In this document: positions 9,811-64,000 of the stretch, one piece after another
Layout: each line of letters opens with the position of its first letter
Numbering within the stretch: the first letter of the stretch is position 1
Origin: Deltaproteobacteria bacterium
GTDB lineage: Bacteria; Desulfobacterota; Desulfomonilia; UBA1062
Length of the DNA: 64,000 bases
Direction of reading: 5' to 3'
Assembly: GCA_018434685.1 (NCBI GenBank)
Contig: JAHDOV010000004.1
Coordinates: 348,808 to 412,807 of the forward strand
The notes under the pieces: generated by a model
What the model was told of the DNA's origin: nothing
Databases searched by the model: none
Seen by the model: only the letters and a program-made list of their open reading frames with translations
Made by a program: the position numbers and the translations under genes

Positions 9811-9878
9811 AGTCGATCCTTCCCTGAAAGCTCCGGAGGCGGAAGGACCCTGGTTGAAGGATCCTTCCGCCTGGTTTC

Positions 9879-11621
9879 TCAGATGGGTTCGGTAATATCC
9901 TCTGCAGAGAGGTTCCCATTGGTGCTGAAGAACTTGACCAGCCCTTCCACGGCGATCCACAGGGCGATAATCAGGATGATGACGTTGATCACCTGCAGGA
10001 GAACATTATTCTGCGTACCGAACTGGCCCTGGTTCAAGACGAGCGCCCAGATGGTCATGACGATCATGAAGACCGCAGGGGCCCCTGCAATGAGCCACTT
10101 CAGGCCGCCCTTGCTTTTGAGATACAGCGTAATGACAATGAGTGCCAGTCCCGCCAGCGTCTGATTGACGGCCCCGAAAAGGGGCCAGAGTTTCAAGGCA
10201 CCGTTTCCGCTGGCACCGGTTGCAAAGGCCAGGATTAACGCTGTTCCCACGGCAATTGCGGTGGCCACGTAGCGGTTGGTGAGAACATGGAGATGCAGGT
10301 CGCTGCAGAGCTCGGCAACCACATAGCGCTGGATGCGGGTGGCGGTATCAAGGGTGGTCCCGGCGAAAGACGCCACGAACACGCCCATGATCGTCAGCGC
10401 AATTCCCTTTGACAGGCCCAGGGCGGCAATCATATTGGCTGCGCCGTCCACGAAGGCACTGACCTTTGATCCAAGTCCTGCGGCTGCTGCCCAGGATGAG
10501 TAATGGGTGGTCCAGGCGGCCACGCCGGTGAGCACCTCTCCGCTCTTGGTGGTGTAGCCCATCCCGATGCCGGCGGAAACCGCTATGATGACCAGGGTGG
10601 CAAGGGTCCCTTCCAGCAGCATGGAACCATAGCCGACAAAGAGGGCATCCTGCTCGCTGCGAACCTGTTTGGCCGAGGTCCCGGAGGAGACCAGGGCGTG
10701 GAAGCCCGAGATGGCCCCGCAGGCGATGGTGATGAACAGGAACGGCCACATGGTCGGGGCCTGTGCCGGCGCAGACTGTATGGCAGGCGCAACGATTTCA
10801 AGCCCGCCGCTCATGGTGGAAACGATCACCCCCAGAATCAGGAGGGTCATGGCCACGACCAGCTGGTGTGAATTGATGAAATCCCGGGGCTGCAGCAGGG
10901 TGGTCACGGGCAGGGTCGAGGCAATAAAGGCATAGGTCAAAAGGATGATCGACCACACGCCGGTGGGCGGAATCCCGGCGATAGCGGGCATTTTCAGCGG
11001 CACATACGCGCCTATTACCACCGTGATGTACATGACGATGACGGCGATAATCGACCAGAGCATGACGTTGGCGCCTTTTTTATAGATGAGGTAGCCCAGG
11101 TAGACGGCAATGGGGATTTCCAGCCAGATAGGGATCACCGATTGTGGATACATGCTGAATATAATGGCGATGACCAGGCCGAATACGGCGATCACGATCC
11201 ACAGTTCCAGGAACACGATCAGGAAGAAAAAGATCTTGGTGCGGTTGTTGATGTATTTGGCAGTGTATTCCGAGATGGATTTTCCGGAATTGCGCATGGA
11301 GATAATGAGCGCGCCGAAATCATGGACAGCCCCCATGATGACACTGCCGAGGAATACCCAGATCAGTGCCGGGACCCATCCCCAGATGATGGCGATGGCC
11401 GGTCCGACAATCGGCCCTGTGCCGGCTATGGATGTGAAGTGGTGTCCGAAGATGACCTCTTTTTTTGTGGGGACATAATCGATGCCATCCTCAAATTCGT
11501 GGGCCGGGGTCTTGAATGAGGCCGAGAGTTTGAATATCCTGCTGCCGATAAACTCTCCGTAGAACTTATACATGATGATATAGCCGGCGAATGCCAAAAC
11601 CATGATCAGTAAAGCCTGCAT
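9879..11621 (-). CDS. cstA: carbon starvation protein A (peptide/pyruvate transporter family)
   Basis: Start MQALLIMVLAFAGYIIMYKFYGEF with AAGGAGG RBS. CstA N-terminal signature (HHFTSIAGTGPIVGPAIA) and multi-TM body. The listed ORF extends further upstream artefactually. Confidence 0.9.
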   Translation of the reverse strand: MQALLIMVLAFAGYIIMYKFYGEFIGSRIFKLSASFKTPAHEFEDGIDYVPTKKEVIFGHHFTSIAGTGPIVGPAIAIIWGWVPALIWVFLGSVIMGAVHDFGALIISMRNSGKSISEYTAKYINNRTKIFFFLIVFLELWIVIAVFGLVIAIIFSMYPQSVIPIWLEIPIAVYLGYLIYKKGANVMLWSIIAVIVMYITVVIGAYVPLKMPAIAGIPPTGVWSIILLTYAFIASTLPVTTLLQPRDFINSHQLVVAMTLLILGVIVSTMSGGLEIVAPAIQSAPAQAPTMWPFLFITIACGAISGFHALVSSGTSAKQVRSEQDALFVGYGSMLLEGTLATLVIIAVSAGIGMGYTTKSGEVLTGVAAWTTHYSSWAAAAGLGSKVSAFVDGAANMIAALGLSKGIALTIMGVFVASFAGTTLDTATRIQRYVVAELCSDLHLHVLTNRYVATAIAVGTALILAFATGASGNGALKLWPLFGAVNQTLAGLALIVITLYLKSKGGLKWLIAGAPAVFMIVMTIWALVLNQGQFGTQNNVLLQVINVIILIIALWIAVEGLVKFFSTNGNLSAEDITEPI

Positions 11622-13356: not shown

Positions 13357-13691
13357 GGTATGTTCTCCTGACTGGATTCTTGAACGTTCCATAGCACACC
13401 CGCAACGTCTGTGCGTAGTCTTTTTTCCGGGCTCCCTTTCCTGCGGGGGTTTTTCTCGATGCTCCTCATCCAAGGCTCTGTTCCTTAAGGGGATTGTCGT
13501 CATGCCGCAAGAATATGCAGCGGGAGACCGCCAGGTTTATCGCTCGGTCTTGAGCGCTGTCGATAGGTGCGCACCAGGGCAAGGTATCGCTTCCCTGGCC
13601 GGACCGGGGCATGCTAAAGCACTGGCTTGAGAATCGGGCACGGGGGTGCGTGGTCAGGTGCCTGATGCGGAAAACGAGGGGAGGATACAAC

Positions 13692-14159
13692 ATGGAAGAA
13701 AGGAACGAAGAGGGGGCCACAGGGCCTCACCTGTTCGCGATGGAGGGCTGGATCAGCACGGCCCCGTTTGAACGGCTTCTCCATATGGAGATTGTCGATG
13801 CAGCCGATGGAAGGGCGGTGCTTACCATGCCTTTTCTCGTCGATCTGGCCCAGGGCGCCGGCATCATGCACGGGGGCGCTCTGCTGAGCCTGGCGGATAC
13901 GGCGGTGGTCATGGCGATAAAAAGCCTCCTGCCGCCCGGGACCCACTTCGGCACCATCTCTGCGGATGCCAGGTTTCTCTATCCGGTCAGGCAGGGCACT
14001 GTCATTGCGAAGGCGCAGGTGACCGGTCAACAGGACCGGACCCTCACGGGAGAGGCAACGGTGTTCAATGAAGAAGGAAGGCCGGTTATGGAATTCCTTG
14101 CCACCTTCAGGATTGCACGGGACAGTGCCATTCGGCAGATCACCTTCCCCGACGAATGA
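13692..14159 (+). CDS. PaaI-family hotdog-fold thioesterase
   Basis: GAGGGGAGGA RBS before ATG 13692. Hotdog signature HGGALLSLADTAVVMA. Confidence 0.7.
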   Translation: MEERNEEGATGPHLFAMEGWISTAPFERLLHMEIVDAADGRAVLTMPFLVDLAQGAGIMHGGALLSLADTAVVMAIKSLLPPGTHFGTISADARFLYPVRQGTVIAKAQVTGQQDRTLTGEATVFNEEGRPVMEFLATFRIARDSAIRQITFPDE

Positions 14160-52923: not shown

Positions 52924-53474
52924 GACTCCTCCCTTTGGCAGGTGGTAATACCAGCAGCCACTATACCCCGGGGAGAACCGGCATGCAAGGGAAAAGATGG
53001 CATGCCTGAGAGTCGGTTCGATAAAGGCATGATCCCTCCATTGCGTAACAGGGAGATCACAGCGGATCCACGTTACTATTGCCTTTCACTTTTTATTTAT
53101 AATAGGGTATAGTTACACCTGAGAGTAAATCCGTGAGTGCGTCTTTATGATCGTTTGAGGTTGAACATGGGGAGAAATGGATTTAAGAACCCAATATATG
53201 TGAAATATTATACACATAATTGGCAATATTTTACCCATAAAACCTTTTTTTCTTGCAGGCCGAAGTTGTTTCTGGAAGCCTACTTTGTTGAAATACGTGA
53301 TGAAAACTGAATAATCTCGTATTGCATGGATTTTGCTTTATTTTAAGTGCCATTGTAAAGATGGATAGGGCCTCGATGATATCTCTTTGAAGGGATGATG
53401 CGGGGAGACGGATTGGCAGGGCGTAGTACTCAGACAAACAAAAAAGGATAGCTTCCTGTTCTTTTTGGAATGAG

Positions 53475-54401
53475 ATGTTTATGATGATGAAAAGAGCATT
53501 TGTGATTTCCCTGTTTGCGGCAATTATCGTTGGTGTATCAGGAATCCCTCTGCATGCCGGACAGATAGTGACCGATGATGTGCGTGTGTGGGCCCGCGAG
53601 GCGTTGGCGCAGGAAAAAGGCCTTGAAGCAGAGCCTGCCGGCAACACGCTTGCGGTGCTCTACTTTCACAACAGGTCCGGCAAGGCCTTGCTGAATCCGC
53701 TTCAGAAAGGGCTCGCCTTCATGCTCATGACGGATCTTTCCCAGGTGGACGGGCTCGTTCTCGTGGAGCGGGTGAAGCTGCAGGCATTGACAGAGGAAAT
53801 GGATCTGGGGATCTCCGGACTGGTGGACCCTGAATCGGCGCCGAAGGTAGGGCGGGTGCTGGGTGCCAGATTCCTCGTCGGCGGGGATCTTCAGGGCACG
53901 GCAGCTGAACTGGGCATAGCCTCCGATGTGCTGGAGGTGCCTGGCCAGCGGGTCGCGGGCAGCCCTTCGAGCAAGGGAGATCTTCCCGGGATATTTGCAA
54001 TGGAAAAGGAGCTTCTTTTTGCGATCATCTCCATCCTGAAGATAGAGCTCTCTGAGCAGAAAAAGCTGGAACTGGAAAAACCGTTTACCACGCAGATCGA
54101 TGCACTGTTCAACCTGATGTATGCGATAGACAGCGCTGACCGGGGTGATTATCTCAAGGCCGAGGCATACTATACTGAGGCGCTCCGGAAGGACCCGGGG
54201 CTTAATGCCGCCCAGGACGGACTGCAGGAGCTCAAGGATCTGAATCTGGTCGGATCTCATGACCGGAGCAAGGCCATGGCGGAGTCGTTGGAGGAAAGGA
54301 CGTCACAGACAAGCCGGTTAACCGATGATTATATCTCACGGAGAAACAGAAACCCCGGCGATAATCTGAAAACCGCAGGACGGATACGGGTGCAGTGGTG
54401 A
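53475..54401 (+). CDS. secreted CsgG/LpoB-like domain protein with C-terminal TPR-like region
   Basis: Signal peptide. LAVLYFHNRS...LVERVKLQALTEEMDLGISGLVD pattern shared with the lipoprotein at 63135-63626. C-terminal helical YYTEALRKDPGLNAAQDGL. Confidence 0.5.
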   Translation: MFMMMKRAFVISLFAAIIVGVSGIPLHAGQIVTDDVRVWAREALAQEKGLEAEPAGNTLAVLYFHNRSGKALLNPLQKGLAFMLMTDLSQVDGLVLVERVKLQALTEEMDLGISGLVDPESAPKVGRVLGARFLVGGDLQGTAAELGIASDVLEVPGQRVAGSPSSKGDLPGIFAMEKELLFAIISILKIELSEQKKLELEKPFTTQIDALFNLMYAIDSADRGDYLKAEAYYTEALRKDPGLNAAQDGLQELKDLNLVGSHDRSKAMAESLEERTSQTSRLTDDYISRRNRNPGDNLKTAGRIRVQW

Positions 54402-57400
54402 AAAAAAACAATAAGGCCATTGGTGTACTGTATGCTGTTGTATGTGCAAGCCTGTTCCTGATGTGTTCATGCAGCGGCAGCTCCGGCAGTGCGTCAGAAA
54501 ACGAGGGAACAGGGTCGATCGTATTCTCCCTTCAACTGCCGGCCGAACCTTTTTCCTCAGCAGACGGCAAGGATGTGCAATACAAGGCCGCTTCCATAGA
54601 CTGCGACAGGCTGGGGATCGTGAGCGTCGAGGCCCAAGTCTACGACGAACATGAAGAGCTGATCGCACAGGGCGGTCCGTGGGACTGCAGCCTCGGTGAA
54701 GGGATCATATACGGCATAAAGGCTGGAAACAACAGGACCGTTCTCCTCTTTCTCAGGGATGAAAACCACATAGTGCGCTATACCGGAAACAAGTCGGAAA
54801 TCAGAGTCATTGCAGGGCAGACAACAGATATAGGGACCATCATCGTTATCGAGGGGGAGGAAGAGGACAACCATGCCCCTGTGCTCACTGGCGGCGGCGT
54901 AACCCCTGAGGCAGGAGTTGCACAAGAGACCTTCACCTACTCGGTACATTACCGGGATATAGATGGCCACGCTGCCTCCCAGAGATCCGTCTATATAGAC
55001 GGCGCACCCTATACCATGAGTCTGACCAGCGGTGCCGGGTATGACGGTACGTATACCTACCGGACCACGCTGCCTGTGGACGATCACACCTACTATTTCG
55101 TATTCAACGACGGCTACGGCGGCACCGTCAGGCTGCCCGGTTCCGAGATGTATGCCGGGCCGCGCGTGCGTGCGGTAAACAATGACCCGGTAGCCGGAGA
55201 CGACCAAGCGAGTGCGGTCCGAGGCGGCAGGGTGGCGGATGGCTTGCTCGACAATGATTATGACCCTGACGATGACGATCTCCTGGTCAATACGACACCG
55301 GTAACAGGTCCTGATCACGGCAATGTGGTACTCAACCAGGACGGCACCTTTATCTACACCCATGACGGCAGCGAGACAGCGAGCGACAGCTTCACCTATG
55401 AGGTACGTGACGGCTGGGGCGGTTCGGCAACTGCCGTGGTAAGCATTTCCGTGTCACTGGACCCGCAGGACAACCATGCCCCTGTGCTCACTGGCGGCGG
55501 CGTAACCCCTGAGGCAGGAGCTGCACAAGAGACCTTCACCTACTCGGTACATTACCGGGATATAGATGGCCACGCTGCCTCCCAGAGATCCGTGTATATA
55601 GACGGCGCACCCTATACCATGAGCCTGAGCAGCGGTGCCGGGTATGACGGTACATATACCTACCGGACCACGCTGCCTGTGGACGATCACTCCTACTATT
55701 TCGTATTCAACGACGGCTACGGCGGCACCGTCAGGCTGCCCGGTTCCGAGATGTATGCCGGACCGCGCGTGCGTGCGGTAAACAATGACCCGGTGGCCGG
55801 GGACGACGAAGCGAGTGCAGTCCGCGGCGGCAGGGTGGCGCATCGCGTGCTCGACAATGATTATGACCCTGACGATGACGATCTCCTGGTCAATACGACA
55901 CCGGTAACAGGTCCTGATCACGGCAACCTGGTGCTCAACCAGGACGGGACCTTTGTCTACACCCATGACGGCAGCGAGACAGCGAGCGACAGTTTCACCT
56001 ATGAGGTCGGTGACGGCTGGGGCGGCTCGGCCTTTGCAACGGTGAGCATAACGGTTTCTTTGGACCCGCAGGACAACCATGCCCCGGTGCTCACTGGCGG
56101 GATCGTATCTCCGGGCGCGGGCGAGGTAACAGAGTCGTTCACGTATACGGTTTACTACAGTGATGTTGACGGTCATGCAGCACAGGAGAAATTTCTCTAC
56201 ATAGACGGCACACGCTATGACATGGTGCTGCTCGATGGAACTCCCTATGCCGGGACCTATGCCTATGAGACAGACCTGCCGCTTGGTTCCCATGAATACT
56301 ACTTCACGTTCACAGACGGCTATGGCGGATCGGCCAGCCTGCCCGAGTCAGGGGCATACCAGGGGCCGTGTGTTGTGGCCGTGGCATATTTTGTAGCATC
56401 CTCACGGGGAAGCGATGATTATGTCGGGTCTATTGCGTATCCGTTTGCAACGATCGGGCATGCCATCGATGCGGTACAGGGTAGTGGAGACAGCCCGGTT
56501 ACCATCTTTATCGCTCAGGGCAGCTATGCCGAGAATCTCGTCCTGGATTCCTGGGAATCGCTTTCCGGCGGCTGGCTCGATGATTTCAGCCGGCAGTGGG
56601 ATTTTGCCGGCAACGGGATCACGCCGGCACCTGAATACGAGACCGTCATTGACGGCGGGCAGGTAGGGAGATGTATTACCGCAGTCTCGGCCGAAGGTGT
56701 CAGCCTCAGCGGTGTGACCCTTTTTAACGGCAATGCCGGCGATTATCAAAAAGGCGGCTCTGCACTCTATCTTGGTTCCTGCTCAGCTGATATCGACTTC
56801 TGCACCATAGTGAACAACACCACCGTATCGGACAATGATATCCACGGCGGGGCAGTGTATAACGATGAGAGCAGCCCCACATTCTCCCGGTGTCTGTTTG
56901 CCGATAATGTAGTAACCGGACCACATATCAAACATGGAGGCGCTCTATATAATTACCGATCGTCTCCGCGCATTGTCGGATGTATTTTCAGGGATAACCA
57001 CGCCGGGTGCAACATGGGTGCCGGCGGGGCCATCTATAACCTTGAAAGCGACGCCGAGATCGTAGACTCTGTCTTTGCCGGAAACACCACCGGCGGATGC
57101 TACAGCTACGGGGCGGGGATATATAATGAATCGAGCGATCCCTTAATTACGAACTGCCTGTTCGTGGGGAATACGGCAACGGGCAGTTGTATCGCACGAG
57201 GGGGCGCTGTGTATAATCAATTAAGCAGCCCGAACATGACCAACTGCAGCTTCTCGCTCAATTCGGCATCAAATGCAGACGGGAACAGCAGGGGCGGCGG
57301 CATATACAATGATGCAGCCTCTGCACCGGTGATCACCAACTCTATACTCTGGGGAGACACGGCGCGACTGGGCAAGGAAATCTTCAACGAGGACTCCTCG

Positions 57401-57646
57401 ATATGCCGGGTCACCTACTGCGACATCGATCAGGACCTGACCGAGAGCGATATTGTTCACCACAATATTCGTGAAGCCCCGCTCTTTGTCGATGCCTCAG
57501 GCGGTGATCTGCACCTCGATGGCGAGTCACCCTGCATCGATGCGGGTACGAATGATGCGCCGTGGCTTTTGGAAACGGATTTCGAGGGAGATCCTCGGAT
57601 TGTGAATGAACATATCGATATGGGTGCAGATGAATATGTCGATTGA
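54395..57646 (+). CDS. large surface (lipo)protein: tandem about 201-aa repeats plus C-terminal right-handed beta-helix with Pmp-like GGA[ILV] / FxxN repeats
   Basis: GTG start overlapping the upstream stop. N-terminal signal with Cys cluster LFLMCSCSG. Two near-identical 603-bp repeats plus a divergent third, each with DNHAPVLTGGGVTPEAG and a cadherin/Ig-like segment (NNDPVAGDD...TFTYEV). The C-terminus has repeated GGAVYN/GGAIYN/GGALYN and FADN/FRDN/FAGN/FVGN/FSLN motifs. Confidence 0.7.
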   Translation: MVKKNNKAIGVLYAVVCASLFLMCSCSGSSGSASENEGTGSIVFSLQLPAEPFSSADGKDVQYKAASIDCDRLGIVSVEAQVYDEHEELIAQGGPWDCSLGEGIIYGIKAGNNRTVLLFLRDENHIVRYTGNKSEIRVIAGQTTDIGTIIVIEGEEEDNHAPVLTGGGVTPEAGVAQETFTYSVHYRDIDGHAASQRSVYIDGAPYTMSLTSGAGYDGTYTYRTTLPVDDHTYYFVFNDGYGGTVRLPGSEMYAGPRVRAVNNDPVAGDDQASAVRGGRVADGLLDNDYDPDDDDLLVNTTPVTGPDHGNVVLNQDGTFIYTHDGSETASDSFTYEVRDGWGGSATAVVSISVSLDPQDNHAPVLTGGGVTPEAGAAQETFTYSVHYRDIDGHAASQRSVYIDGAPYTMSLSSGAGYDGTYTYRTTLPVDDHSYYFVFNDGYGGTVRLPGSEMYAGPRVRAVNNDPVAGDDEASAVRGGRVAHRVLDNDYDPDDDDLLVNTTPVTGPDHGNLVLNQDGTFVYTHDGSETASDSFTYEVGDGWGGSAFATVSITVSLDPQDNHAPVLTGGIVSPGAGEVTESFTYTVYYSDVDGHAAQEKFLYIDGTRYDMVLLDGTPYAGTYAYETDLPLGSHEYYFTFTDGYGGSASLPESGAYQGPCVVAVAYFVASSRGSDDYVGSIAYPFATIGHAIDAVQGSGDSPVTIFIAQGSYAENLVLDSWESLSGGWLDDFSRQWDFAGNGITPAPEYETVIDGGQVGRCITAVSAEGVSLSGVTLFNGNAGDYQKGGSALYLGSCSADIDFCTIVNNTTVSDNDIHGGAVYNDESSPTFSRCLFADNVVTGPHIKHGGALYNYRSSPRIVGCIFRDNHAGCNMGAGGAIYNLESDAEIVDSVFAGNTTGGCYSYGAGIYNESSDPLITNCLFVGNTATGSCIARGGAVYNQLSSPNMTNCSFSLNSASNADGNSRGGGIYNDAASAPVITNSILWGDTARLGKEIFNEDSSICRVTYCDIDQDLTESDIVHHNIREAPLFVDASGGDLHLDGESPCIDAGTNDAPWLLETDFEGDPRIVNEHIDMGADEYVD
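54866..56390 (+). repeat. 603-bp tandem repeat (2 near-identical copies plus 1 divergent partial copy) inside the large surface protein gene
   Basis: Copy 1 at 54866-55468 and copy 2 at 55469-56071 differ by only scattered SNPs. Copy 3 from 56072 is diverged. All in frame (201 aa). Confidence 0.85.
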
Positions 57647-57674
57647 AATGAACAGTGAAGGGAACTCATCCATT

Positions 57675-58826
57675 ATGAGCAGATACCAGGGCAGCCCGTG
57701 CAATGTATTAATCAGGCAGATAGCGTTAATCCTGTTTATCGTCTTTTCCGGCGCAGGAGTTGTCTGTGCCTCCGGGAATACCATGTCAAGCGGATTTCAC
57801 TATGACTGGTGGGATAGTGACGAGGGTGATAAAGGGATGCAGTTGTACCTCCCGATACAGGCCGCCTCAGAGTATCGAGGGGTTTCTTTCGAGGTGCTCA
57901 CTGCCTATGCATACACCCGGGTCGATCCTTCCGGCGGCTCGAAGCGGTCTTTGAGCGATTTTGTGGACACAAAGGTGAATTTCGCCTATCCCCTCGAGGG
58001 AAGATACGGCTGTGATATCGTCTTTGGGCTCGGGTTCAATCTGCCCACCGGTCACACGGACCTGAGCACCAGGGATCTGGTGCTTGTTGTCCCTCCTGAT
58101 CTCATGTCCATCAACTCCTTCGGGGAGGGGCTGAACATGAATCCCCGAGTCAGCATCGCCAGGCAGTGGGGAAAGCTCGTGGCAGGGATAGGCCTGGGAT
58201 ATGCCTGGCGCGGTGAATATGACTACAGTGACGGTGTCGAGGATTACGACCCGGGCGAGATATTCACCCTGACCGGTGAGGCTGCCTATGAGTTTTCTCC
58301 CCAGTGGTATGGTAAGGCCTACGGGGAATATGAATCCTTCAGCAAGGACACCGTCGATGGAGATGATTATTACCAGGAAGGCGATGTAACGCTCATGGGC
58401 CTCGGGCTGAGCTATGTCCAGCCTGCATGGGACCTGGGCTTGAGCCTGACCGGCATCTTCAGGGACAAGAGCAAAATACAGCAGGGCACCATCGTGCCCA
58501 CGGAAGCGAAAAACAGCCATGGCGATGAGTGGATAGCAGCAATTGTATACCGGTATTTTCAGGACAAGGACACCACGGTGAGCACGTCACTGGAATATCT
58601 TTCTTTGCAGGAAAACGACTATGATGCGAGCTCCCTGTACTACATCGGCAAGAGGCAGAAGATCACGCTCGGGTGCATGGTAAGCAAGATTTTGAAAAAA
58701 GATCTCGAGGCCTCGGCAGAGATAAAGGGATTCATCATGGATGATGAGAAGAACTGGTATCACCCGGGTGAGGACTATAGCTACAGGGGATTTTCGCTGG
58801 GGGCTTCGGTAACCAAGGGCTTTTAG
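57675..58826 (+). CDS. outer-membrane beta-barrel protein
   Basis: Signal peptide MSRYQGSPCNVLIRQIALILFIVFSGAGVVCASG. Aromatic-rich alternating strands. C-terminal ...GASVTKGF with terminal Phe. Confidence 0.6.
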   Translation: MSRYQGSPCNVLIRQIALILFIVFSGAGVVCASGNTMSSGFHYDWWDSDEGDKGMQLYLPIQAASEYRGVSFEVLTAYAYTRVDPSGGSKRSLSDFVDTKVNFAYPLEGRYGCDIVFGLGFNLPTGHTDLSTRDLVLVVPPDLMSINSFGEGLNMNPRVSIARQWGKLVAGIGLGYAWRGEYDYSDGVEDYDPGEIFTLTGEAAYEFSPQWYGKAYGEYESFSKDTVDGDDYYQEGDVTLMGLGLSYVQPAWDLGLSLTGIFRDKSKIQQGTIVPTEAKNSHGDEWIAAIVYRYFQDKDTTVSTSLEYLSLQENDYDASSLYYIGKRQKITLGCMVSKILKKDLEASAEIKGFIMDDEKNWYHPGEDYSYRGFSLGASVTKGF

Positions 58827-58894
58827 ATTTCGAAGTAATATTCGGATAGGTATTCTAACATTTTTTAGGATAACTACTTCCTAACTTATTCTTT

Positions 58895-59086
58895 TTTTAT
58901 GTTACTTTCTTTGCGTGCACAAGAGAAAGTAACCAAAGAAATGCACCCCGCGAAGCCGCCCTTCGGGTTCGTTCGCTCACTCGGGAAAAATCAGCTCGCA
59001 ATTAAACTCGCTCCATTTCATTACGCTCAGACAGAATTGCTCGTTTTTCTGATTTTTCCCTCCCTCGCTCACCGGCTTCAAGGGGA
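58895..59086 (+). repeat. about 190-bp structured repeat, left copy, inverted relative to 62711-62908
   Basis: About 85-90% identical to the reverse complement of 62711-62908. Contains a terminal 10-bp-stem hairpin (58901-58933), a CCC-UUCG-GGG hairpin and a GGGAAAAATCAG...CTGATTTTTCCC long stem. The listed ORF 58899-59129 is an artefact. Confidence 0.8.
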
Positions 59087-59295
59087 CCCGGGGTTCAGCG
59101 CTGAAATTCACTGTCTGGAAAAGAATTAGCTACCATCAATACCGGTGCACATAACCATGGGAGATATGGATCAGGTCATGTTGCTTAAAAGTAAATAGTC
59201 GTCGCAGATATATGCATTTTGTAACATGTCGATCACCGTGGCTGAAAGCCGTCCGTTGGTTTGCCTTGTTGGATTACAATTTGGCTGTCTTCACC

Positions 59296-61692
59296 TCATG
59301 TTTCAAAGCCTTCTTTATCTCTTTCCGATCTTTTGCTGGTAAGCTTTCTCCTGCGCTTTTTTCTCTCTGCGTCACTCCACTCAGACCACGAAGGGAGGTT
59401 AAGATAGAGTTGTAGAGTGGCGTCGGCAAGCAAATTGAGTTCTCTCAAATCATAATCGCGCTCACTATAGCGATCGTACAAACCACCTTTATCTTTCCAA
59501 GCCTCTCCGATACTATGGGAAAAAAGTTCCATGCCCGTCAACACAATAACATGGCTGCTCACTTTTCTATTCAATCTTTTCCTTCGTTCAGAAAGTGCCA
59601 GATTTCGTATCATCTTTACTTCTGATTCCTCTAATGCATTGTTGAGCGTTGCGAAGACCAGCGCAGCTCCAGGAAAAGCAACGGCCAAGTCCTTCATTCG
59701 GTCTATGTCCTTGCGTTCGAATTTATTGAAACTCTTACACTCTGCATGAACGATGTAGGTCCCCTTCTTGCGCCATGTAGATGGCTTGTATAGGCAGGTG
59801 AAATCTGCCTCTAAACGTTTCCCGTCTTTCTCCGCTATATAACTAAAAAGAGGAGTGACAAAACGATCAAAATCACCACCCAATAGCCTGAGAGTAAGCA
59901 GAACCGTAAAAGCTCCTTGGGCAACGGACCCTGCGAAGGGACCATGAGCCCGGTATGTCCATTGAATATTTTTAGGAGACTTCAGTGGTGGTGAGTAGTC
60001 AGAGAGACAGAAACGACAGCGTAGTTCATAGTCGAGCTCATTTAGTTGATACCAATTGTAGCGCGTACACACAGGACATTGAACTTTAGCCCCTAACCTC
60101 AAGGCGTTTACGGACAGCAATCCTTCCAGAAAGCGTTCAGCATCGTAGAATAGTCCGTCTGACTGGATAACTTGTTTAAGCTTCGCTACGACCGCCTGGT
60201 AAGGTTTTCCAGCTTCTTTCTCCAACTCCCCAAGCAACTCTACAACGCCATAGTGGGCGAGTTGCGAAATGCCGTAAACACCGCCGAGCTGCTTCAAAAG
60301 CTGTTTTGCGATTCTTCCAGGTCCAGATAAGGATACTTTCCAACCTCGTTCTCGAAACCAATGGGTCATGACTTTCTCAGATCGAGGTAGGTCGAGGAAT
60401 ATCAAATCCCTGTAATTGTGTGCTAAAAAAACAGGGCCAAATTTCGAAAATCGCCAATTGAAGTAACCTAGGTTTCCTATTGCTGAGGACAATTCTCGGC
60501 TTCCTTCAGGAAAAACCTCGGCTAGGGGCTCCTTTGATGTGAAAAATCGAAAGCTGAATTCGTTGGCAAATTTAGGTTTGCCTGAGTAATCTTGAAATAC
60601 GTCGATTTCCGGATCTTGCGACCGCAGCTCCAGTCTCTCCTCGCCCTCAGTGATTCTTCGCTCCTCCTCGTAGGCAAAGGGAAAAGCGATGTCCTCGCCG
60701 GGCACGTTGTCGCGCGCCCAGGCATCCCATAAGCGAGGATACCACCACTGAAGTAGGTACTGATCAGGTTTCGGGATATTTAGCGAGTGGCAAAAATCTT
60801 TGACCAAATCCTCTGAAAGCGAACGGGACCTCTGGACTGTGGTGTGGTAAAACATTTCAGGATTGTGCCTATAAGGCTGATAATTTTTTTCGATGAAGTT
60901 CAAGGCAAATGCCTTTACGCTGGCCATGTTCGCGACCTGGATGGGGATCGGAATCACATTGACGCCTGCAGCTCGCAGATTCCAGTAGTCGATTACGTCT
61001 TGGGCACTTGTTGCGTCGCAAACGAACAAAGTGGGGTTGCGAAGAGGTTTTTCCTGTAATGCCCAAGAGCTTAACCTTCGAGGAAATAGGTTAGGTGACT
61101 TCAGAATGTCAAGAAGCTTGCTCAGAGTTACTTGGCTTTTTGAAATGCCCGGATGGGTAAGGAAATGCTCGTCGATGATCTTCTGGGCTGTCTTCGGAAG
61201 CACGCCAAAGACACTTGCTAAGAAGAGACGGTAGGCTCGCGGTAATTCAAGAAAAATGACCTGGAGATCATCATTTCTCTTGTATTTCAGCTCTTTCTTG
61301 ATGAAATCATTCAGTAAATCGATCAACCCGATGCCGTATGTGGGGGTTACTGAGTTTTCTAAAGCTCCAATCAATTCATCAGCGTTAATGATGTCTCGAT
61401 TACCCACCTGAAACACACGATTTGCGCAACTACCAATGGGTACCACCAGATCGGGGTCAAACCCGGTTAAGTATCCTTCAACAATCTCCGAAGGAAGTGG
61501 AAGATGCCGAACACGATGAGCCTCCCATTTGACAGGAGTACGACGGTAAACCGGAATTATTGGATTATAACTTCCACCCCAAAGGAAAGTGCTGAGTTCG
61601 ATAGCGCGGAAAAGCCCCACACGATCTGCGGGATCAACCAGAAATCCCACTCTTAAGGGTCGTACTTTAATGTTTATGTTTCCCGAAGCCAC
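59296..61692 (-). CDS. large uncharacterised protein (798 aa) with zinc ribbon and putative PD-(D/E)xK nuclease-like C-terminal motif; candidate defence/mobile-element protein
   Basis: GTG start at 61690-61692. C-x2-C-x17-C-x2-C (CPVCTRYNWYQLNELDYELRCRFC). D...ExK candidate (EADFTCLYK...TYIVHAECKSF). Lower GC than the flanking genes. No similarity to any family I recognise. Confidence 0.6.
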   Translation of the reverse strand: MASGNINIKVRPLRVGFLVDPADRVGLFRAIELSTFLWGGSYNPIIPVYRRTPVKWEAHRVRHLPLPSEIVEGYLTGFDPDLVVPIGSCANRVFQVGNRDIINADELIGALENSVTPTYGIGLIDLLNDFIKKELKYKRNDDLQVIFLELPRAYRLFLASVFGVLPKTAQKIIDEHFLTHPGISKSQVTLSKLLDILKSPNLFPRRLSSWALQEKPLRNPTLFVCDATSAQDVIDYWNLRAAGVNVIPIPIQVANMASVKAFALNFIEKNYQPYRHNPEMFYHTTVQRSRSLSEDLVKDFCHSLNIPKPDQYLLQWWYPRLWDAWARDNVPGEDIAFPFAYEEERRITEGEERLELRSQDPEIDVFQDYSGKPKFANEFSFRFFTSKEPLAEVFPEGSRELSSAIGNLGYFNWRFSKFGPVFLAHNYRDLIFLDLPRSEKVMTHWFRERGWKVSLSGPGRIAKQLLKQLGGVYGISQLAHYGVVELLGELEKEAGKPYQAVVAKLKQVIQSDGLFYDAERFLEGLLSVNALRLGAKVQCPVCTRYNWYQLNELDYELRCRFCLSDYSPPLKSPKNIQWTYRAHGPFAGSVAQGAFTVLLTLRLLGGDFDRFVTPLFSYIAEKDGKRLEADFTCLYKPSTWRKKGTYIVHAECKSFNKFERKDIDRMKDLAVAFPGAALVFATLNNALEESEVKMIRNLALSERRKRLNRKVSSHVIVLTGMELFSHSIGEAWKDKGGLYDRYSERDYDLRELNLLADATLQLYLNLPSWSEWSDAERKKRRRKLTSKRSERDKEGFET

Positions 61693-61841
61693 ATTCTCTC
61701 ATCTTTCTGATTATTGAAATGCTCATAAAGCCAGGTGGTAATCCTGGACTAACATATTCAAGGACCCGACGTAGGCATAAGCAGCACAAGCGCATCCCGC
61801 GTTGATCTGCTTGCATTTGATCGGCCTTTTAAAAAACCCAT

Positions 61842-61880
61842 TCAGGCGGGGCGAGGGGGGAATCGAACCCCCCGCGCTTA
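61842..61880 (-). other. tRNA 3'-half-like fragment (T-arm GGGGG-TTCGATT-CCCCC plus acceptor 3' strand); no complete cloverleaf
   Basis: Minus-strand sequence gcgcGGGGGGTTCGATTCCCCCCCTCGCCCCgcc. No plausible 5' acceptor partner sits within tRNA distance (nearest is about 117 nt upstream). Confidence 0.4.
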
Positions 61881-62153
61881 CTCCCATATATAAAAGGTGA
61901 AAGTCACAGCAACTCATCCGTTCCCCTGTAGGGTTGTAGATCGCCCCAGCAGCGCTCCCCCCGCCACTACACAAATCAATTTGATAGTTGTTCCCATTTT
62001 GACCTCCATTCTCGTCTTAATCTCAATAGCTAAGCTCCCAACTATTTGGATTAATAACGATAGGCCCAATATGAACCCAACTAGGAACACATATGATTCG
62101 ATGTAACTGACACCTATACATGGGCATCCTTTACATAATTCAGATAAATAACT

Positions 62154-62393
62154 TTATTCTCTTGGGAGTAGATCTTTTGCATTCCGGGATGGAATAGGCA
62201 GCCCTTTTTCTTTCAGGTGATCAATAAGACGCTGCTCATAAGGCGGAGCCCAGCCATCCCAGTTACCCTCATAACAAGACATGCAGACAGAAATGTTATA
62301 ACTCTTAATGTATCTTCCATCATACACATGTGGGCCCATTTGAAATTGCCCATCACAAATAAAACATTTATCCATGAACTTCTTTTCAGACAT
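62154..62393 (-). CDS. small zinc-ribbon protein (79 aa) in a very AT-rich segment
   Basis: Internal start MSEKKFMDKCFICDG...CMSCYEG (two CxxC pairs) with GGAGGA RBS 5 nt upstream. Surrounding 61.98-62.70 kb is conspicuously AT-rich. Confidence 0.5.
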   Translation of the reverse strand: MSEKKFMDKCFICDGQFQMGPHVYDGRYIKSYNISVCMSCYEGNWDGWAPPYEQRLIDHLKEKGLPIPSRNAKDLLPRE

Positions 62394-62710
62394 GTGTCCT
62401 CCAATGCCTAAATGCAGAAAGATACTATGCAGATAAAAAGGTTGCATATGGGCTGTTAGCTAAGCAAATGCAGATATAAAACAACAAGCTCATAACACCT
62501 TTCAATAAATTCAATTAATCTTAATATTATATCATTATCTGCAAATTAATGTCCATATGTTTCCTCAACGGCATAAAGTAGAAGATTATAGATCCCGTGC
62601 CAATATGTTCCATAACCCAAGAATGCACATAATCATTAGAGACCTATTGCCTCTCTTGGTGATATGTTTTGAGAGATCATAGCTGAATAACTCAGCACCA
62701 GAACCAATTC

Positions 62711-62908
62711 CCCCTTGAAGCCGGCGAGGGAGTGCAGGAAAAATCCGAAAGACGAGCAATTTTGTCTGAGCGGAATGAAATGGAGCGAGTTTAATTGCGA
62801 GCGGATTTTTCCTGTGCGAGTGAGCGTACTCCGCTGGAAGCGGAGCGGCTTCGCGGGGGTGCATTTCTTTGGTTACTTTCTTTCGTGCAAGCAAAGAAAG
62901 TAACATAA
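62711..62908 (-). repeat. about 190-bp structured repeat, right copy (inverted)
   Basis: Reverse complement aligns with 58895-59086. The stems are maintained by compensatory changes (CAGGAAAAATCCG...CGGATTTTTCCTG; CTCCGC-ttcca-GCGGAG). The listed ORF 62586-62906 is an artefact. Confidence 0.8.
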
Positions 62909-63011
62909 ATACATATAGATAGAATCAAGCTATCGATTAAATAGGCCCTTTAGTAAAGTGACATAGGTAACACTCTAAAAAAATAGATTTGAAAGAACAC
63001 CCTCCTATGGG

Positions 63012-63047
63012 AAATAAAAAAGGGGACCTTGTTGAAAGGCCCCCTTG
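63012..63047 (-). terminator. probable terminator hairpin downstream of the CsgG-like lipoprotein gene
   Basis: gaaataaaaaa-GGGGACCTTgttgAAAGGCCCCC; on the minus strand the hairpin is followed by TTTTTTATTTC. Confidence 0.45.
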
Positions 63048-63134
63048 TGTTCTTCAAATGCTCTACTAAGGTTTATCTACAAATCTTCTTCTACGAAAGG
63101 CCCCTATGCCTCCATATTAAACAACCCATTGTGT

Positions 63135-63626
63135 TCAGAACAACTCCAGTGCCGCACCCCTGGCCGCATCGAGCCAGGCCGATATCCCGGTCTCCGTTGT
63201 GGTCTTCTGCGCCGCACGCACGATCTTGCCGGTGCTGACATCCACGAGCCGCAGGTCGATGCGCATGGTCTCGCCGAGCACCTGAAAGGCACCGAACACC
63301 ATCTGCTGTGCCCCTGCCATCTTTCCGATTCGGAGCCTGGTGTTCTCGTCTGCAAGGTCCGACGATCCGAGGTTCAGCTCCTCGAGCACGAGGAGCAGTT
63401 GCTGGCGTTCCACCACCTGGTACGATCCTTTGTCACTGATCGTCTCCATCACCCCGGAGGTGAGGATCTGCCCCAGGGCCTCTCGGGAAGAGTCATCGTA
63501 ACTCAGATTCTCCAGATCCCAGACAGCGATGGTAGCCGGGCCGGTCTGCGTCGGGGTTGTTGCACACCCTGAAAACAGGATCAGGAAGACCAAGGAGGTC
63601 CAGAACAAAGCGCGCTTTGAGAGCAT
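63135..63626 (-). CDS. CsgG/LpoB-like lipoprotein
   Basis: Internal start MLSKRALFWTSLVFLILFSGC (lipobox) with AGGGATAAGGG RBS. IAVWDLENLS...VVERQQLLLVLEELNLGSSDL pattern like the 53475 gene. Confidence 0.6.
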   Translation of the reverse strand: MLSKRALFWTSLVFLILFSGCATTPTQTGPATIAVWDLENLSYDDSSREALGQILTSGVMETISDKGSYQVVERQQLLLVLEELNLGSSDLADENTRLRIGKMAGAQQMVFGAFQVLGETMRIDLRLVDVSTGKIVRAAQKTTTETGISAWLDAARGAALELF

Positions 63627-63630
63627 ACCC

Positions 63631-64000
63631 TTATCCCTCAGTGAGCGTCTTGTCGATCTTTTCCACTGCCTTGTCATCACGCTTGAGGGGCCGCTCCTGG
63701 TCGATTATCCTGCAGTAGGAAAGGTCCGGTTCAACGATTGTTACCTCGAGCCCGGCAATGTTCTTCGCTGCCTGCTGAAGTTTCTTTCCCTTGTATTCGA
63801 TGGGCTCCTGTTCTTCGATAACCCCGAATCTGCTGCCCATGACCACCCCCTGGTTTGATCCGAGGTTGATCATGACCTTGTCTCCGGTCACATTCACCAC
63901 ATAGGCCTGCAGGGGGTAGGTCGTCATGACCGTCGTGAGGATTTCCCTGTTGAGCTTGTGAAGATCTTTCTTCAGCGTGGCATCGGTGCTTAATTCCCGG
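63631..64000 (-). CDS. partial CDS (C-terminal part; gene continues beyond window end), hypothetical periplasmic protein
   Basis: Frame open from 64000 to the stop at 63631. The ORF-track start at 63927 is only the first in-window ATG. Ends 4 nt before the lipoprotein start. Confidence 0.5.
   Translation of the reverse strand, partial: RELSTDATLKKDLHKLNREILTTVMTTYPLQAYVVNVTGDKVMINLGSNQGVVMGSRFGVIEEQEPIEYKGKKLQQAAKNIAGLEVTIVEPDLSYCRIIDQERPLKRDDKAVEKIDKTLTEG

What the first reader, a model, noticed from the sequence alone, without database searches (positions are those of the whole stretch)
58830..63130. AT-rich insertion island bounded by inverted about 190-bp structured repeats, carrying a 798-aa orphan protein, a tRNA-fragment and a small zinc-ribbon protein
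Between the outer-membrane protein gene ending at 58826 and the CsgG-like lipoprotein gene ending at 63135 lies about 4.3 kb that looks foreign. The 798-aa gene is visibly lower in GC than its neighbours and 61.98-62.70 kb is strongly AT-rich.

The segment is bracketed by two inverted copies of an about 190-bp repeat (58895-59086 and 62711-62908). It contains a tRNA 3'-half-like fragment of the kind left at integration sites. Its two genes have no family I can recognise but carry nucleic-acid-type motifs: a zinc ribbon plus a D...ExK candidate in the large protein, and CxxC...CxxC in the 79-aa protein.

It is inserted into a locus of surface/secretion genes that continues on both sides. Taken together this resembles a small mobile or defence island whose cargo is undescribed.
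Basis: partly seen in the sequence, partly recalled or inferred. Interest (0 to 1): 0.8.

Follow-up and report, generated by a model that had tools for sequence, protein, structure and literature searches.

The report
Repeat-bounded foreign cassette carrying a nuclease
A 4.3-kb foreign DNA segment is bracketed by two inverted copies of a folded repeat that also occurs in distant bacteria and phages, and it carries a large unstudied nuclease gene that elsewhere sits among anti-phage defence genes.

Summary
Window 58.83-63.13 kb is compositionally foreign: GC 0.446 against 0.567, and GC3 0.47 and 0.38 against about 0.75. It is bracketed by inverted ~190-nt repeats (58896-59085 and 62711-62909, 85% identical), the only two copies in 64 kb.

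- **The 798-aa protein is not an orphan.** It represents a family of at least 2,217 clusters with no Pfam, NCBIfam or PADLOC model. It has a zinc ribbon and a C-terminal PD-(D/E)xK nuclease fold. In all seven other loci inspected it lies among defence or mobile-element genes, twice directly after hsdS of a type I R-M operon.
- **The tRNA fragment is a full-length, decayed tRNA-Sec-like remnant.**
- **The repeats belong to a widespread structured family.** It has a sequence-conserved hairpin, a pseudoknot, nested stems with heavy compensatory change, and a conserved loop. It occurs in Ralstonia megaplasmids, where a 451-nt empty inverted pair shows presence/absence polymorphism, and in phage contigs. 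Rfam has no match.

A syntenic relative has the same repeat pair at the same site with entirely different cargo. A third locus also shows an inverted pair with other cargo. The right repeat continues into a conserved leader with a near-consensus promoter.

Best reading: a repeat-bounded, promoter-equipped cassette carrying a candidate defence nuclease. How it moves is unknown; I found no recombinase.

The parts
57606..58826 (+). Left native flank: outer-membrane beta-barrel-type protein gene, last gene of the CsgG-cadherin-OMP operon
   Evidence: ORF. 132 homologues, some carrying PF13557. 82% nt identity with the syntenic locus L011. GC3 0.67.
58896..59085 (+). Left structured repeat unit, with the hairpin end facing outward. 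P1 hairpin at 58901-58933, third half-site CAAAGAAA at 58934-58941, conserved loop AAACTCGC...CGCTCAGACAG at about 59004-59034, closing stem CCCC/GAAGCCG...CGGCTTC/GGGG.
   Evidence: Covariance model 245.9 bits. Covariation counts.
59246..61771 (-). Single-gene module that travels between genomes: the 798-aa gene (CDS 59296-61692) with about 80 nt upstream and about 50 nt downstream
   Evidence: DNA homology to L012 (83.6%) and to L003-L005 (77%) stops at these limits. Family size. Structure and nuclease fold. Invariant residues.
61848..61947 (-). Decayed tRNA-Sec-like element: intact 7-bp acceptor stem and T arm, anticodon loop missing 4 nt
   Evidence: Rfam RF01852 at 22.4 bits, below the gathering score of 47. 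ARAGORN negative. Fold.
62154..62393 (-). 79-aa CxxC...CxxC protein gene, first gene behind the leader
   Evidence: ORF and RBS. Called as a gene on Logan contig L001. No Pfam, NCBIfam, PADLOC or plasmid hit. One PHROG hit at E 0.19, not significant. Single-sequence model unusable, pLDDT 51.
62394..62710 (-). Conserved non-coding leader adjoining the right unit (GC 0.35), shared with L007, L006 and, in shorter form, L011. It ends about 35 nt before the first cargo start codon.
   Evidence: Alignment A2. L011 sequence read directly. BLAST 69.9% over 501 nt to L007.
62526..62555 (-). Near-consensus sigma-70 promoter TGGACA-18-TATAAT with an extended -10 TG, pointing into the cargo
   Evidence: 11 of 12 matches. 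It lies in the conserved part of the leader.
62711..62909 (-). Right structured repeat unit, with the hairpin end facing outward and a longer P2 hairpin
   Evidence: Covariance model 242.7 bits.
63020..63046 (-). Intrinsic terminator of the right-hand native operon, lying outside the right unit
63135..63680 (-). Right native flank: CsgG-like lipoprotein gene
   Evidence: PF03783 at E 6e-16. Syntenic in L011. GC3 0.753.

Best explanation
The 4.3-kb segment is a horizontally acquired gene cassette. It sits between two inverted copies of a ~190-nt repeat unit from a widespread family of small, highly structured, apparently mobile intergenic elements.

Shown:
- The two units face each other with their sequence-conserved hairpin ends outward.
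- The right unit continues into a conserved ~320-nt leader with a strong promoter that reads into the cargo.
- The cargo differs between otherwise syntenic genomes and between loci, while the units and the leader are kept.

Inferred:
- The pair of units plus the leader acts as a platform. Its content is exchanged by recombination between copies of the element on other replicons, including phages, or by an unidentified enzyme acting in trans.
- That enzyme would recognise the folded single-stranded or cruciform form of the unit. I infer this because base pairing is kept almost only by Watson-Crick double changes.

Cargo in this genome: a 79-aa zinc-ribbon protein, a decayed tRNA-Sec-like remnant carried in from an earlier location, and a 798-aa protein.

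The 798-aa protein has alpha/beta (Rossmann-like) N-terminal domains, a helical region, a Cys4 zinc ribbon and a C-terminal PD-(D/E)xK nuclease. I take it to be a self-contained sensor-nuclease of anti-phage defence: the N-terminal domains sense an infection cue and the nuclease domain cuts nucleic acid. No cyclase, CRISPR or methylase partner travels with it, so it is closer in logic to a stand-alone or type IV-like restriction enzyme than to a signal-activated Card1/Can2 effector.
For: **Foreign composition:**

**Inverted units:**

**Same pair, other cargo:**
- L011 has flanks 76-86% identical to the window and units at 9801-10015(+) and 13563-13767(-). Its cargo is AT-rich and unrelated, including a BrnT toxin.
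- L007 reads tRNA-Val, unit(+), two unrelated ORFs, unit(-).
- The leader is conserved in the window, L007, L006 and L011.

**Structure of the unit:**
- All six close copies fold alike.
- 94.4% of cells are paired, against 41-57% in slid controls. 32 of 44 pairs show double changes. 0 of 500 shuffles reach the observed values.
- The pseudoknot is supported by four or five compensatory variants.
- Only 8 G.U among 552 pair cells.

**Family spread and mobility:**
- 138 plasmid records, up to 16 places per Ralstonia megaplasmid.
- A 451-nt inverted-pair element is present or absent at the glgB-glgX site between strains whose flanks are 98% identical.
- Units occur in phage and viral contigs.
- An 85.6%-identical unit occurs in a MAG labelled Bacteriovoracaceae.

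**The 798-aa protein:**
- 333 or more close homologues and 2,217 cluster representatives.
- Invariant Cys4 and D...ExK.
- It moves as a single-gene module.
Against: - No recombinase, transposase or integrase lies in or next to the island, or in the other cargos.
- No target-site duplication is seen at the window's borders (read directly).
- No empty site was recovered for this locus. More distant relatives are rearranged or their contigs end there.
- Units also occur singly and as direct repeats in a phage structural module. The inverted pairing is therefore not obligatory, and the units might be independent insertions.
- The copy number in this genome beyond the 64-kb window is unknown.
- The defence role of the 798-aa family rests on neighbourhood and fold only. 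No PADLOC model matches. The N-terminal sensor assignment is weak, with Foldseek TM 0.19/0.33.
Confidence: 0.5

Rival explanations
1. The two units are independent insertions of a small selfish repeat (MITE/REP-like) into AT-rich intergenic DNA at the edges of a recombination hotspot. The island itself arrived and is exchanged by ordinary homologous recombination through the conserved flanking operons. The units play no part in cargo movement.
For: Units occur singly and in direct orientation in phage contigs, in either orientation relative to genes. There is no recombinase and no target duplication in the window. The site lies between two convergent operons, a typical hotspot. L011 differs also outside the left unit: it has an extra 125-aa gene that is ancestral, since L047 has it too.
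Against: Three separate loci have the inverted pair exactly at the borders of the AT-rich cargo, hairpin ends outward. The right unit is always joined to the same promoter leader. In Ralstonia the inverted pair behaves as one 451-nt insertion/deletion unit. There are only two units in 64 kb, and both are at the island borders.
Confidence: 0.25
2. The units are functional structured RNAs (insulator, terminator, 3' UTR stabiliser or small RNA) that serve neighbouring genes. Their position at the island borders reflects transcriptional insulation of foreign DNA, not mobility.
For: Very strong covariation, a pseudoknot and a conserved loop. Always intergenic, including after the capsid gene of a phage. 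The cargo operon would read through the left unit. The reverse strand folds 7-17 kcal/mol better in all six copies. A.C outnumbers G.U by 11 to 2 in the inner helices, so the reverse strand would carry the wobble pairs.
Against: G.U pairs are almost absent (1.4%), which is unusual for an RNA family. Orientation relative to flanking genes is not fixed. The right-hand operon has its own terminator before the unit. Neither orientation has a U-tract after the hairpin. Ralstonia shows presence/absence polymorphism of the whole inverted pair. The P1 arm sequence, not just its pairing, is conserved across phyla.
Confidence: 0.15
3. The 3.6-kb segment is an invertible (phase-variable) cassette that flips by recombination between the 190-nt inverted repeats.
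For: An inverted repeat of 85% identity flanks the segment. An independent Logan assembly of the same sequence breaks inside both units, as expected if both orientations are present, though any inverted repeat longer than the k-mer gives the same break.
Against: The promoter and all cargo genes lie inside the segment, so inversion would not switch expression. No invertase is present. The 15% divergence between the arms argues against frequent exchange over their whole length.
Confidence: 0.05

Closest known systems
MITEs and foldback-type non-autonomous transposable elements, including MITE pairs that bracket passenger genes (from my own knowledge: integron mobilisation units and the 439-bp MITE pair around class 1 integrons in Acinetobacter)
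   Same: Terminal inverted repeats, no transposase inside, several copies per replicon in Ralstonia, presence/absence polymorphism of a 451-nt unit, and the ability to enclose unrelated genes.
   Different: The arms are long (~190 nt). They have their own multi-stem architecture, a pseudoknot, and a loop and hairpin conserved in sequence across phyla. Single units and direct repeats also occur. No cognate transposase is known. One arm carries a conserved promoter leader. Target duplication is unclear: 4-nt CCCC in Ralstonia, none seen here.
Integron gene cassettes and attC sites
   Same: Folded, structure-conserved recombination-site-like repeats that separate variable, promoter-driven, often defence-type cargo. 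In phage contig L036 the units are direct repeats around single ORFs.
   Different: No IntI integrase. No R''-L''/L'-R' attC consensus. The units are inverted in the window, L011, L007 and Ralstonia. The units are about 190 nt with conserved primary sequence.
REPIN/RAYT and IS200/IS605-type hairpin ends (single-strand transposition)
   Same: Palindromic units found as inverted pairs. Pairing is maintained by strict Watson-Crick compensation, suggesting recognition in single-stranded DNA. In Ralstonia the insertion lies in the loop of a pre-existing hairpin.
   Different: REPs are 20-40 nt with GTAG or CGTC tags (PMC3733652, abstract only, as listed). No such tag occurs here, and no RAYT or TnpA gene was seen in any locus.
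Card1/Can2/Cdn1 CARF-nuclease effectors of type III CRISPR
   Different: Twice the size, with an extra helical region and a Cys4 zinc ribbon. No sequence similarity to solved structures and no DUF1887 Pfam hit. Never next to CRISPR or cyclase genes in the eight contexts seen.
Stand-alone or type IV-like restriction nucleases and genes embedded in type I R-M operons (from my own knowledge: PrrC, RloC, Mrr in the immigration control region)
   Same: A single gene with no methylase of its own. It lies between hsdS and hsdM in L008 and directly after hsdS in L045, where the contig ends before the next gene is identified. The nuclease fold also resembles FokI, BspD6I, MspJI and AspBHI.
   Different: No recognisable DNA-modification reader domain. 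No family model matches. Activity is untested.

Membership tests
MITE / foldback non-autonomous transposable element | Terminal inverted repeats at both ends of the element | tested here: met
   58896-59085 against 62711-62909, 84.7% identical. The same arrangement occurs in L011, L007, L014, L015 and L016.
MITE / foldback non-autonomous transposable element | Multiple copies per genome | tested here: inconclusive
   Up to 16 places per Ralstonia megaplasmid. Only 2 copies in this 64-kb window. The rest of this genome was not available.
MITE / foldback non-autonomous transposable element | Presence/absence polymorphism at a site between related strains | tested here: met
   Ralstonia glgB-glgX spacer: a 451-nt indel between CFBP2957 and Rs5 or FJAT445. 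Not shown for the window's own site.
MITE / foldback non-autonomous transposable element | Target-site duplication | tested here: inconclusive
   CCCC lies at both junctions in Ralstonia, which could equally be deletion microhomology. Nothing is evident at the window's borders.
MITE / foldback non-autonomous transposable element | A cognate autonomous element or transposase with the same ends | tested here: not met
   No transposase was found between or beside the units in any locus examined. This was not an exhaustive search.
Integron cassette array | IntI tyrosine recombinase with attI next to the array | tested here: not met
   No recombinase domain in the island or its flanking genes.
Integron cassette array | attC sites in direct orientation with the RYYYAAC...GTTRRRY cores | tested here: not met
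   The units are inverted here. The P1 ends GTTACTT/AAGTAAC do not fit the cores (read directly).
tRNA-targeted integrative genomic island | Integrase gene and direct att repeats, one within an intact tRNA gene at a border | tested here: not met
   No tRNA gene in the window. The tRNA-Sec-like remnant is internal and decayed. No integrase. No direct repeats at the borders.
Rfam structured RNA families | Score at or above the gathering threshold of any of the 4227 models | tested here: not met
   No match in the window at gathering thresholds. Over 58700-63200 there was nothing relevant at E up to 5.
PD-(D/E)xK nuclease superfamily (798-aa protein, C-terminal domain) | Conserved acidic residues and lysine in a D...(D/E)xK arrangement on an alpha-beta-beta-beta-alpha-beta core | tested here: met
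CARF-nuclease effectors (Card1/Can2, DUF1887) | CARF ligand-binding domain recognisable by sequence or fold | tested here: inconclusive
   Foldseek aligns about 630 columns to Cdn1 and Card1, but with TM 0.19/0.33. No Pfam hit in any of 43 members.
CARF-nuclease effectors (Card1/Can2, DUF1887) | Genomic association with type III CRISPR-Cas or another cyclic-oligonucleotide synthase | tested here: not met
   None in the eight contexts examined.
Known anti-phage defence systems (PADLOC-DB 2.0) | Match to a system protein model | tested here: not met
   No hit at E up to 1 for either the 798-aa or the 79-aa protein.
tRNA-Sec gene | Passes the Rfam gathering score or ARAGORN, with an intact UCA anticodon loop | tested here: not met
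   22.4 bits against 47 needed. Four nucleotides of the anticodon loop are missing. ARAGORN negative.

The most novel reading that the evidence does not exclude
The ~190-nt unit (P1 hairpin with pseudoknot, closing stem, long hairpin with the AAACTCGC...CGCTCARACAG loop) is the recombination site of a so far undescribed cassette-exchange system that recognises folded single-stranded DNA. On this reading, inverted or direct pairs of units delimit promoter-driven cassettes that are shuttled among chromosomes, megaplasmids and phages across phyla. The 798-aa Rossmann/zinc-ribbon/PD-(D/E)xK protein is a new stand-alone defence nuclease carried as one such cassette.
Probability: 0.2. Interest if true: 0.85.

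Novelty: new variant of a known kind. Interest (0 to 1): 0.62.

Why it matters
Two leads come out of one locus.

**A structured repeat family.** It spans phyla and has unusually strong compensatory support, yet no Rfam entry. It marks the borders of exchangeable, promoter-equipped gene cassettes. If the units are recombination or mobilisation sites, this would be a way of moving defence and toxin genes that needs no nearby recombinase and that current island finders would miss.

**A very large, unannotated protein family.** It has at least 2,217 clusters at 50% identity and members of about 800 aa. It has a nuclease fold and a consistent defence-island address: beside hsdS in two type I R-M operons, in Tn7-like cargo, and next to DISARM-like and Dcm/Vsr clusters. 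It is a concrete, testable candidate for a new single-gene anti-phage system.

Tried and rejected
- **More repeat copies through the protein database.** I used a chimeric query made of the spurious ORFs that cross the unit in several frames.
- **Exact-pattern scans with the Desulfobacterota-type loop.** The genome and metagenome collections gave one locus each and viral contigs gave none. The more general P1 and short-loop patterns worked better.
- **Rfam.** Nothing for the units at gathering thresholds or at E up to 5.
- **Literature.** Searching the conserved words as text found only unrelated primers. Searches for Ralstonia MITEs or palindromic repeats found no description of this element.
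- **Empty-site test.** The closest relative, L011, is occupied with other cargo. L024 and L046 are rearranged. L047 ends just past an ancestral small gene that the window has lost.
- **79-aa protein.** The single-sequence AlphaFold model has pLDDT 51.5, so I ran no fold search on it. tblastn against plasmids found nothing.
- **afdb50 fold library.** It was unavailable.
- **Sigma-54 promoter at the conserved TGGCACG in the leader.** Rejected, because the -12 GC element is absent in all four copies (read directly).
- **attC-type cores, REP tags and tyrosine-integrase att structure.** Considered and not met; see the membership tests.
- **P1 as a terminator.** Rejected as the sole function, because no U-tract follows it in either orientation.

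Full report
**1. The observation**

The segment between the outer-membrane protein gene (ends 58826, + strand) and the CsgG-like gene (ends 63135, - strand) is compositionally foreign.
- GC is 0.446 over 58827-63134, against 0.567 for the rest of the window. The minimum is 0.35-0.37 in 62.2-62.7 kb.
- Third-position GC is 0.469 for the 798-aa gene and 0.375 for the 79-aa gene. The neighbouring genes have 0.63-0.77, and twelve other long ORFs of the window average 0.749 with a minimum of 0.639.

The inverted repeat is real. 58896-59085 matches the reverse complement of 62711-62909 at 84.7% over 202 columns (E 3e-60). Neither BLAST nor a covariance model finds a third copy in the 64 kb.

An independent Logan assembly of the same DNA (L001, 3680 nt) equals window 59060-62739. 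It ends inside both units.

ARAGORN finds no tRNA and Rfam finds nothing at gathering thresholds.

**2. The site in relatives**

The flanks are native. On the left lies a CsgG/TPR, cadherin/beta-helix, OMP operon. On the right lies a CsgG-like/FlgT_C-like operon, convergent with the first and carrying its own terminator at 63046-63020.

Metagenome contig L011 is syntenic (PFL, GntR, CsgG, cadherin, OMP ... CsgG-like). Its nucleotide identity to the window is 82-86% on the left and 76% on the right.
- It has the same two inverted units at the same place: 9801-10015(+) and 13563-13767(-).
- The ~3.5 kb between them is unrelated to the window's cargo. It holds small ORFs, one BrnT toxin and no 798-aa gene. 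It is again AT-rich (0.37-0.43) and all on the strand that reads away from the right unit.

The site instead behaves as a repeat-bounded variable slot.

I could not find an empty site. L024 and L046 are rearranged. L047 ends just beyond a small secreted-protein gene that L011 also has outside its left unit and that the window has lost.

**3. The repeat unit**

More copies came from exact-pattern scans and BLAST:
- L006, a MAG labelled Bacteriovoracaceae, 85.6% identical to the left unit.
- L007, where a unit starts directly after the CCA end of tRNA-Val and a second, inverted unit lies 1.4 kb further on, with two unrelated ORFs between them.
- Ralstonia megaplasmids: 138 plasmid records, up to 16 places in one record.
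- An Ilyobacter megaplasmid (hairpin part only, 7 places), plus Caballeronia and Burkholderia.
- About fifteen viral contigs.

All copies share one architecture:
- **P1 hairpin.** Its 13-nt arms are conserved in sequence, GT(T/C)ACTTTCTTTG - N6-8 - CAAAGAAAGTAAC. They are followed by a third half-site, CAAAGAAA.
- **Pseudoknot.** Four nucleotides of the P1 loop pair with the four nucleotides after CAAAGAAA. Compensatory variants seen are TGCA/TGCA, TGCC/GGCA, CGCA/TGCG, TGTG/CACA and CGGG/CCCG.
- **Closing stem P0.** CCCC..GAAGCCG pairs with CGGCTTC..GGGG, about 150 nt apart.
- **Short hairpin P2**, of variable length.
- **Long hairpin P3-P4.** It is topped by the conserved loop AAACTCGC(N)CGCTCA(G/A)ACAG, always about 100 nt from P1.
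- **TCGCTCA motif**, recurring four times in direct orientation.

I built a covariance model from six copies with a structure I specified by hand. It recovers the Ralstonia units at 57-71 bits and a viral unit at 73 bits.

Covariation on the resulting alignment:
- 94.4% of pair cells are standard pairs, against 41-57% when the partners are slid by 1-3 columns.
- 32 of 44 pairs show changes on both sides.
- No shuffle of 500 reaches the observed values.
- The alignment is fitted to the model, which inflates these figures, but the margin is large.
- The pseudoknot helix is paired in 70% of all rows. That set includes reverse-strand partial matches and Ralstonia copies with another register.

Two features argue against a plain RNA motif.
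- G.U pairs are almost absent: 8 of 552 cells in 13 full copies, and in the inner helices 2 G.U against 11 A.C.
- The P1 arms are conserved as sequence, not only as pairing, from Fusobacteria to Betaproteobacteria.

The reverse strand folds 7-17 kcal/mol better in all six close copies.

From this I infer a structure that matters in DNA, either single-stranded or cruciform, or in both strands. This inference is not tested.

**4. Evidence that units move**

In Ralstonia two inverted units lie 90-130 nt apart (L014, L015, L016).

At the glgB-glgX spacer, strain CFBP2957 carries such an element. Strains Rs5 (flanks 98% identical) and FJAT445 lack exactly 451 nt.
- The empty allele is a small hairpin, GTTTCGTCCCC-GGCA-GGGGATGAAAC.
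- The element sits after CCCC, and CCCC is present at both junctions.

This is either an insertion with a 4-nt duplication into a hairpin loop, or a clean excision at microhomology. Either way the inverted pair is a discrete unit of gain or loss.

Units are not always paired.
- Phage contig L036 encodes terminase, a Mu-type portal, capsid and cement proteins. It has three units in direct orientation in intergenic spaces, two of them around a single cement-protein gene.
- L039 has two direct units.

I found no transposase, integrase or other recombinase in or beside any unit-bounded segment.

**5. The leader**

The right unit of the window continues inward into about 320 nt of AT-rich non-coding DNA. 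This DNA is homologous to the sequence following the units in L007 and L006 and, in shortened form, in L011.

It contains a near-consensus promoter, TGGACA-18-TGnTATAAT, at 62555-62526 on the - strand. It matches 11 of 12 positions.

Homology ends at ...TCTGCATAGT, about 35 nt before the first cargo start codon. Downstream of that point each locus has its own genes.

The left unit has no such extension. The element is therefore polar: unit, leader with promoter, cargo, then an inverted unit.

**6. The cargo**

*(a) The 79-aa protein (62393-62154)*
- It has CxxC...CxxC and a good ribosome-binding site.
- It matches no Pfam, NCBIfam or PADLOC family and nothing in plasmids. The only PHROG hit has E 0.19, which is not significant.
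- The single-sequence model is too poor to use.

*(b) The tRNA-like element (61947-61848, - strand)*
- It has a perfect 7-bp acceptor stem and T arm.
- It aligns end to end with the tRNA-Sec model at 22.4 bits, below the threshold of 47.
- Its anticodon loop lacks four nucleotides.
- It lies just outside the DNA that travels with the 798-aa gene, not at an island border. I read it as a scar from an earlier selC-type location of neighbouring DNA. This is an inference.

*(c) The 798-aa gene*
- It moves as a single-gene module. DNA homology to other contigs (83.6% to L012, 77% to L003-L005) runs only from 61771 to 59246.
- The protein has 333 or more homologues at 53-84% identity. Source labels include Desulfobacteraceae, Desulfomonilaceae, Gammaproteobacteria, Uhrbacteria and a Hodarchaeota bin.
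- An exhaustive HMMER search finds 2,217 cluster representatives, 579 of them below 1e-30 and nearly all 780-830 aa.
- None of 43 members hits Pfam. There is no NCBIfam, PADLOC, PHROG or PDB-sequence match.
- The AlphaFold model (pLDDT 78, pTM 0.67) shows two alpha/beta domains (1-330), a beta-rich segment, a helical region, a Cys4 ribbon and a C-terminal alpha-beta-beta-beta-alpha-beta domain. That last domain carries the invariant E628/D630/E651/K653.

Seven other neighbourhoods all point to defence or mobile DNA:
- between hsdS and hsdM of a type I R-M operon (L008), and directly after hsdS in a second one (L045), where the contig ends before the next gene can be identified;
- beside an MmeI-type methylase, helicase, MZB and PLD set, with toxin-antitoxin genes (L003, L004);
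- as cargo of a Tn7-like element, with AAA_21 and PIN proteins (L044);
- between IS21 copies and toxin-antitoxin genes (L002);
- next to a GIY-YIG-like ORF, judged only from reading its sequence (L012);
- a 28%-identical homologue lies on a Photobacterium plasmid.

No cyclase or CRISPR genes accompany it.

**7. Interpretation**

*Shown:*
- The segment is a foreign, AT-rich cassette.
- A structured repeat pair and a promoter leader are kept while the cargo varies.
- The repeat family is widespread and structurally constrained, and in Ralstonia it is polymorphic for presence.
- The large gene belongs to a big unannotated nuclease family that keeps company with defence systems.

*Inferred:*
- The units are the sites through which cargo is mobilised or exchanged.
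- They act in a folded DNA form.
- The 798-aa protein is a self-contained sensor-nuclease of anti-phage defence.

The main rival is that the units are independent selfish insertions at a hotspot. It remains credible because single and direct units exist and because I found no enzyme and no target duplication here.

**8. Novelty**

Repeat-bounded passenger segments and single-gene defence nucleases are known kinds. What is unusual:
- the unit's size, multi-stem architecture, pseudoknot and cross-phylum sequence conservation;
- the near-exclusive Watson-Crick compensation;
- the attached promoter leader;
- the absence of the unit from Rfam 15, and of the protein family from Pfam, NCBIfam and PADLOC.

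I could not query ISfinder or newer defence catalogues. I therefore class this as a new variant of a known kind rather than categorically new.

Noticed in passing
window 61848-61947 (- strand): Full-length but decayed tRNA-Sec-like element: 7-bp acceptor stem and T arm intact, anticodon loop missing 4 nt, Rfam 22.4 bits against 47 needed. It sits between the 79-aa gene and the 798-aa gene module, not at an island border.
   Followed up: yes
window 61914-62090 (- strand): 58-aa ORF with a hydrophobic helix (FLVGFILGLSLLIQIVGSLAI) that starts just after the 79-aa gene and overlaps the tRNA-like element. It may be a small membrane protein or may be spurious.
   Followed up: no
window 53000-53500: A second AT-rich stretch (GC 0.38-0.41) between the GntR gene and the CsgG/TPR gene. 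Most of it is shared with the syntenic contig L011, so it looks like native regulatory DNA rather than an insertion.
   Followed up: partly
window 54395-57646 (+ strand): The 1083-aa cadherin/Big_9/beta-helix surface protein contains a near-exact internal duplication of about 600 nt (repeated ~200-aa modules). The L011 orthologue is shorter (989 aa), so the repeat number varies between relatives.
   Followed up: no
L011 9303-9680 (- strand); L047 3027-3356 (- strand): A small secreted-protein gene lies between the OMP gene and the left unit in L011 and follows the OMP gene in L047. It is absent from the window, so the window has a deletion just outside the left unit.
   Followed up: partly
L015 4999-5449 against L026 and L027 (Ralstonia glgB-glgX spacer): A 451-nt inverted pair of units is present in strain CFBP2957 and absent in Rs5 and FJAT445. 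The empty allele is an 11-bp-stem hairpin with loop GGCA, and CCCC lies at both junctions of the occupied allele.
   Followed up: yes
L036 1093-1272, 7044-7223, 7874-8051 (all - strand): A phage structural-module contig (terminase, Mu-type portal, capsid, two cement proteins) carries three units in direct orientation in intergenic gaps, two of them flanking one cement-protein gene.
   Followed up: partly
L007 7-81 and 82-286: A unit begins immediately after the CCA end of an intact tRNA-Val gene, so at least one member of the family abuts a tRNA 3' end.
   Followed up: partly
L008 8811-13881; L045 6741-10649: In two unrelated contigs the homologue of the 798-aa gene follows hsdS of a type I restriction-modification operon. 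In L008 hsdM comes next. In L045 the contig ends before the next gene can be identified.
   Followed up: yes
L001 (Logan SRR13787007 contig, equal to window 59060-62739): An independent assembly of the same DNA breaks inside both units. This is what an inverted repeat longer than the assembler's k-mer produces, and it would also fit two orientations of the segment in the population.
   Followed up: no
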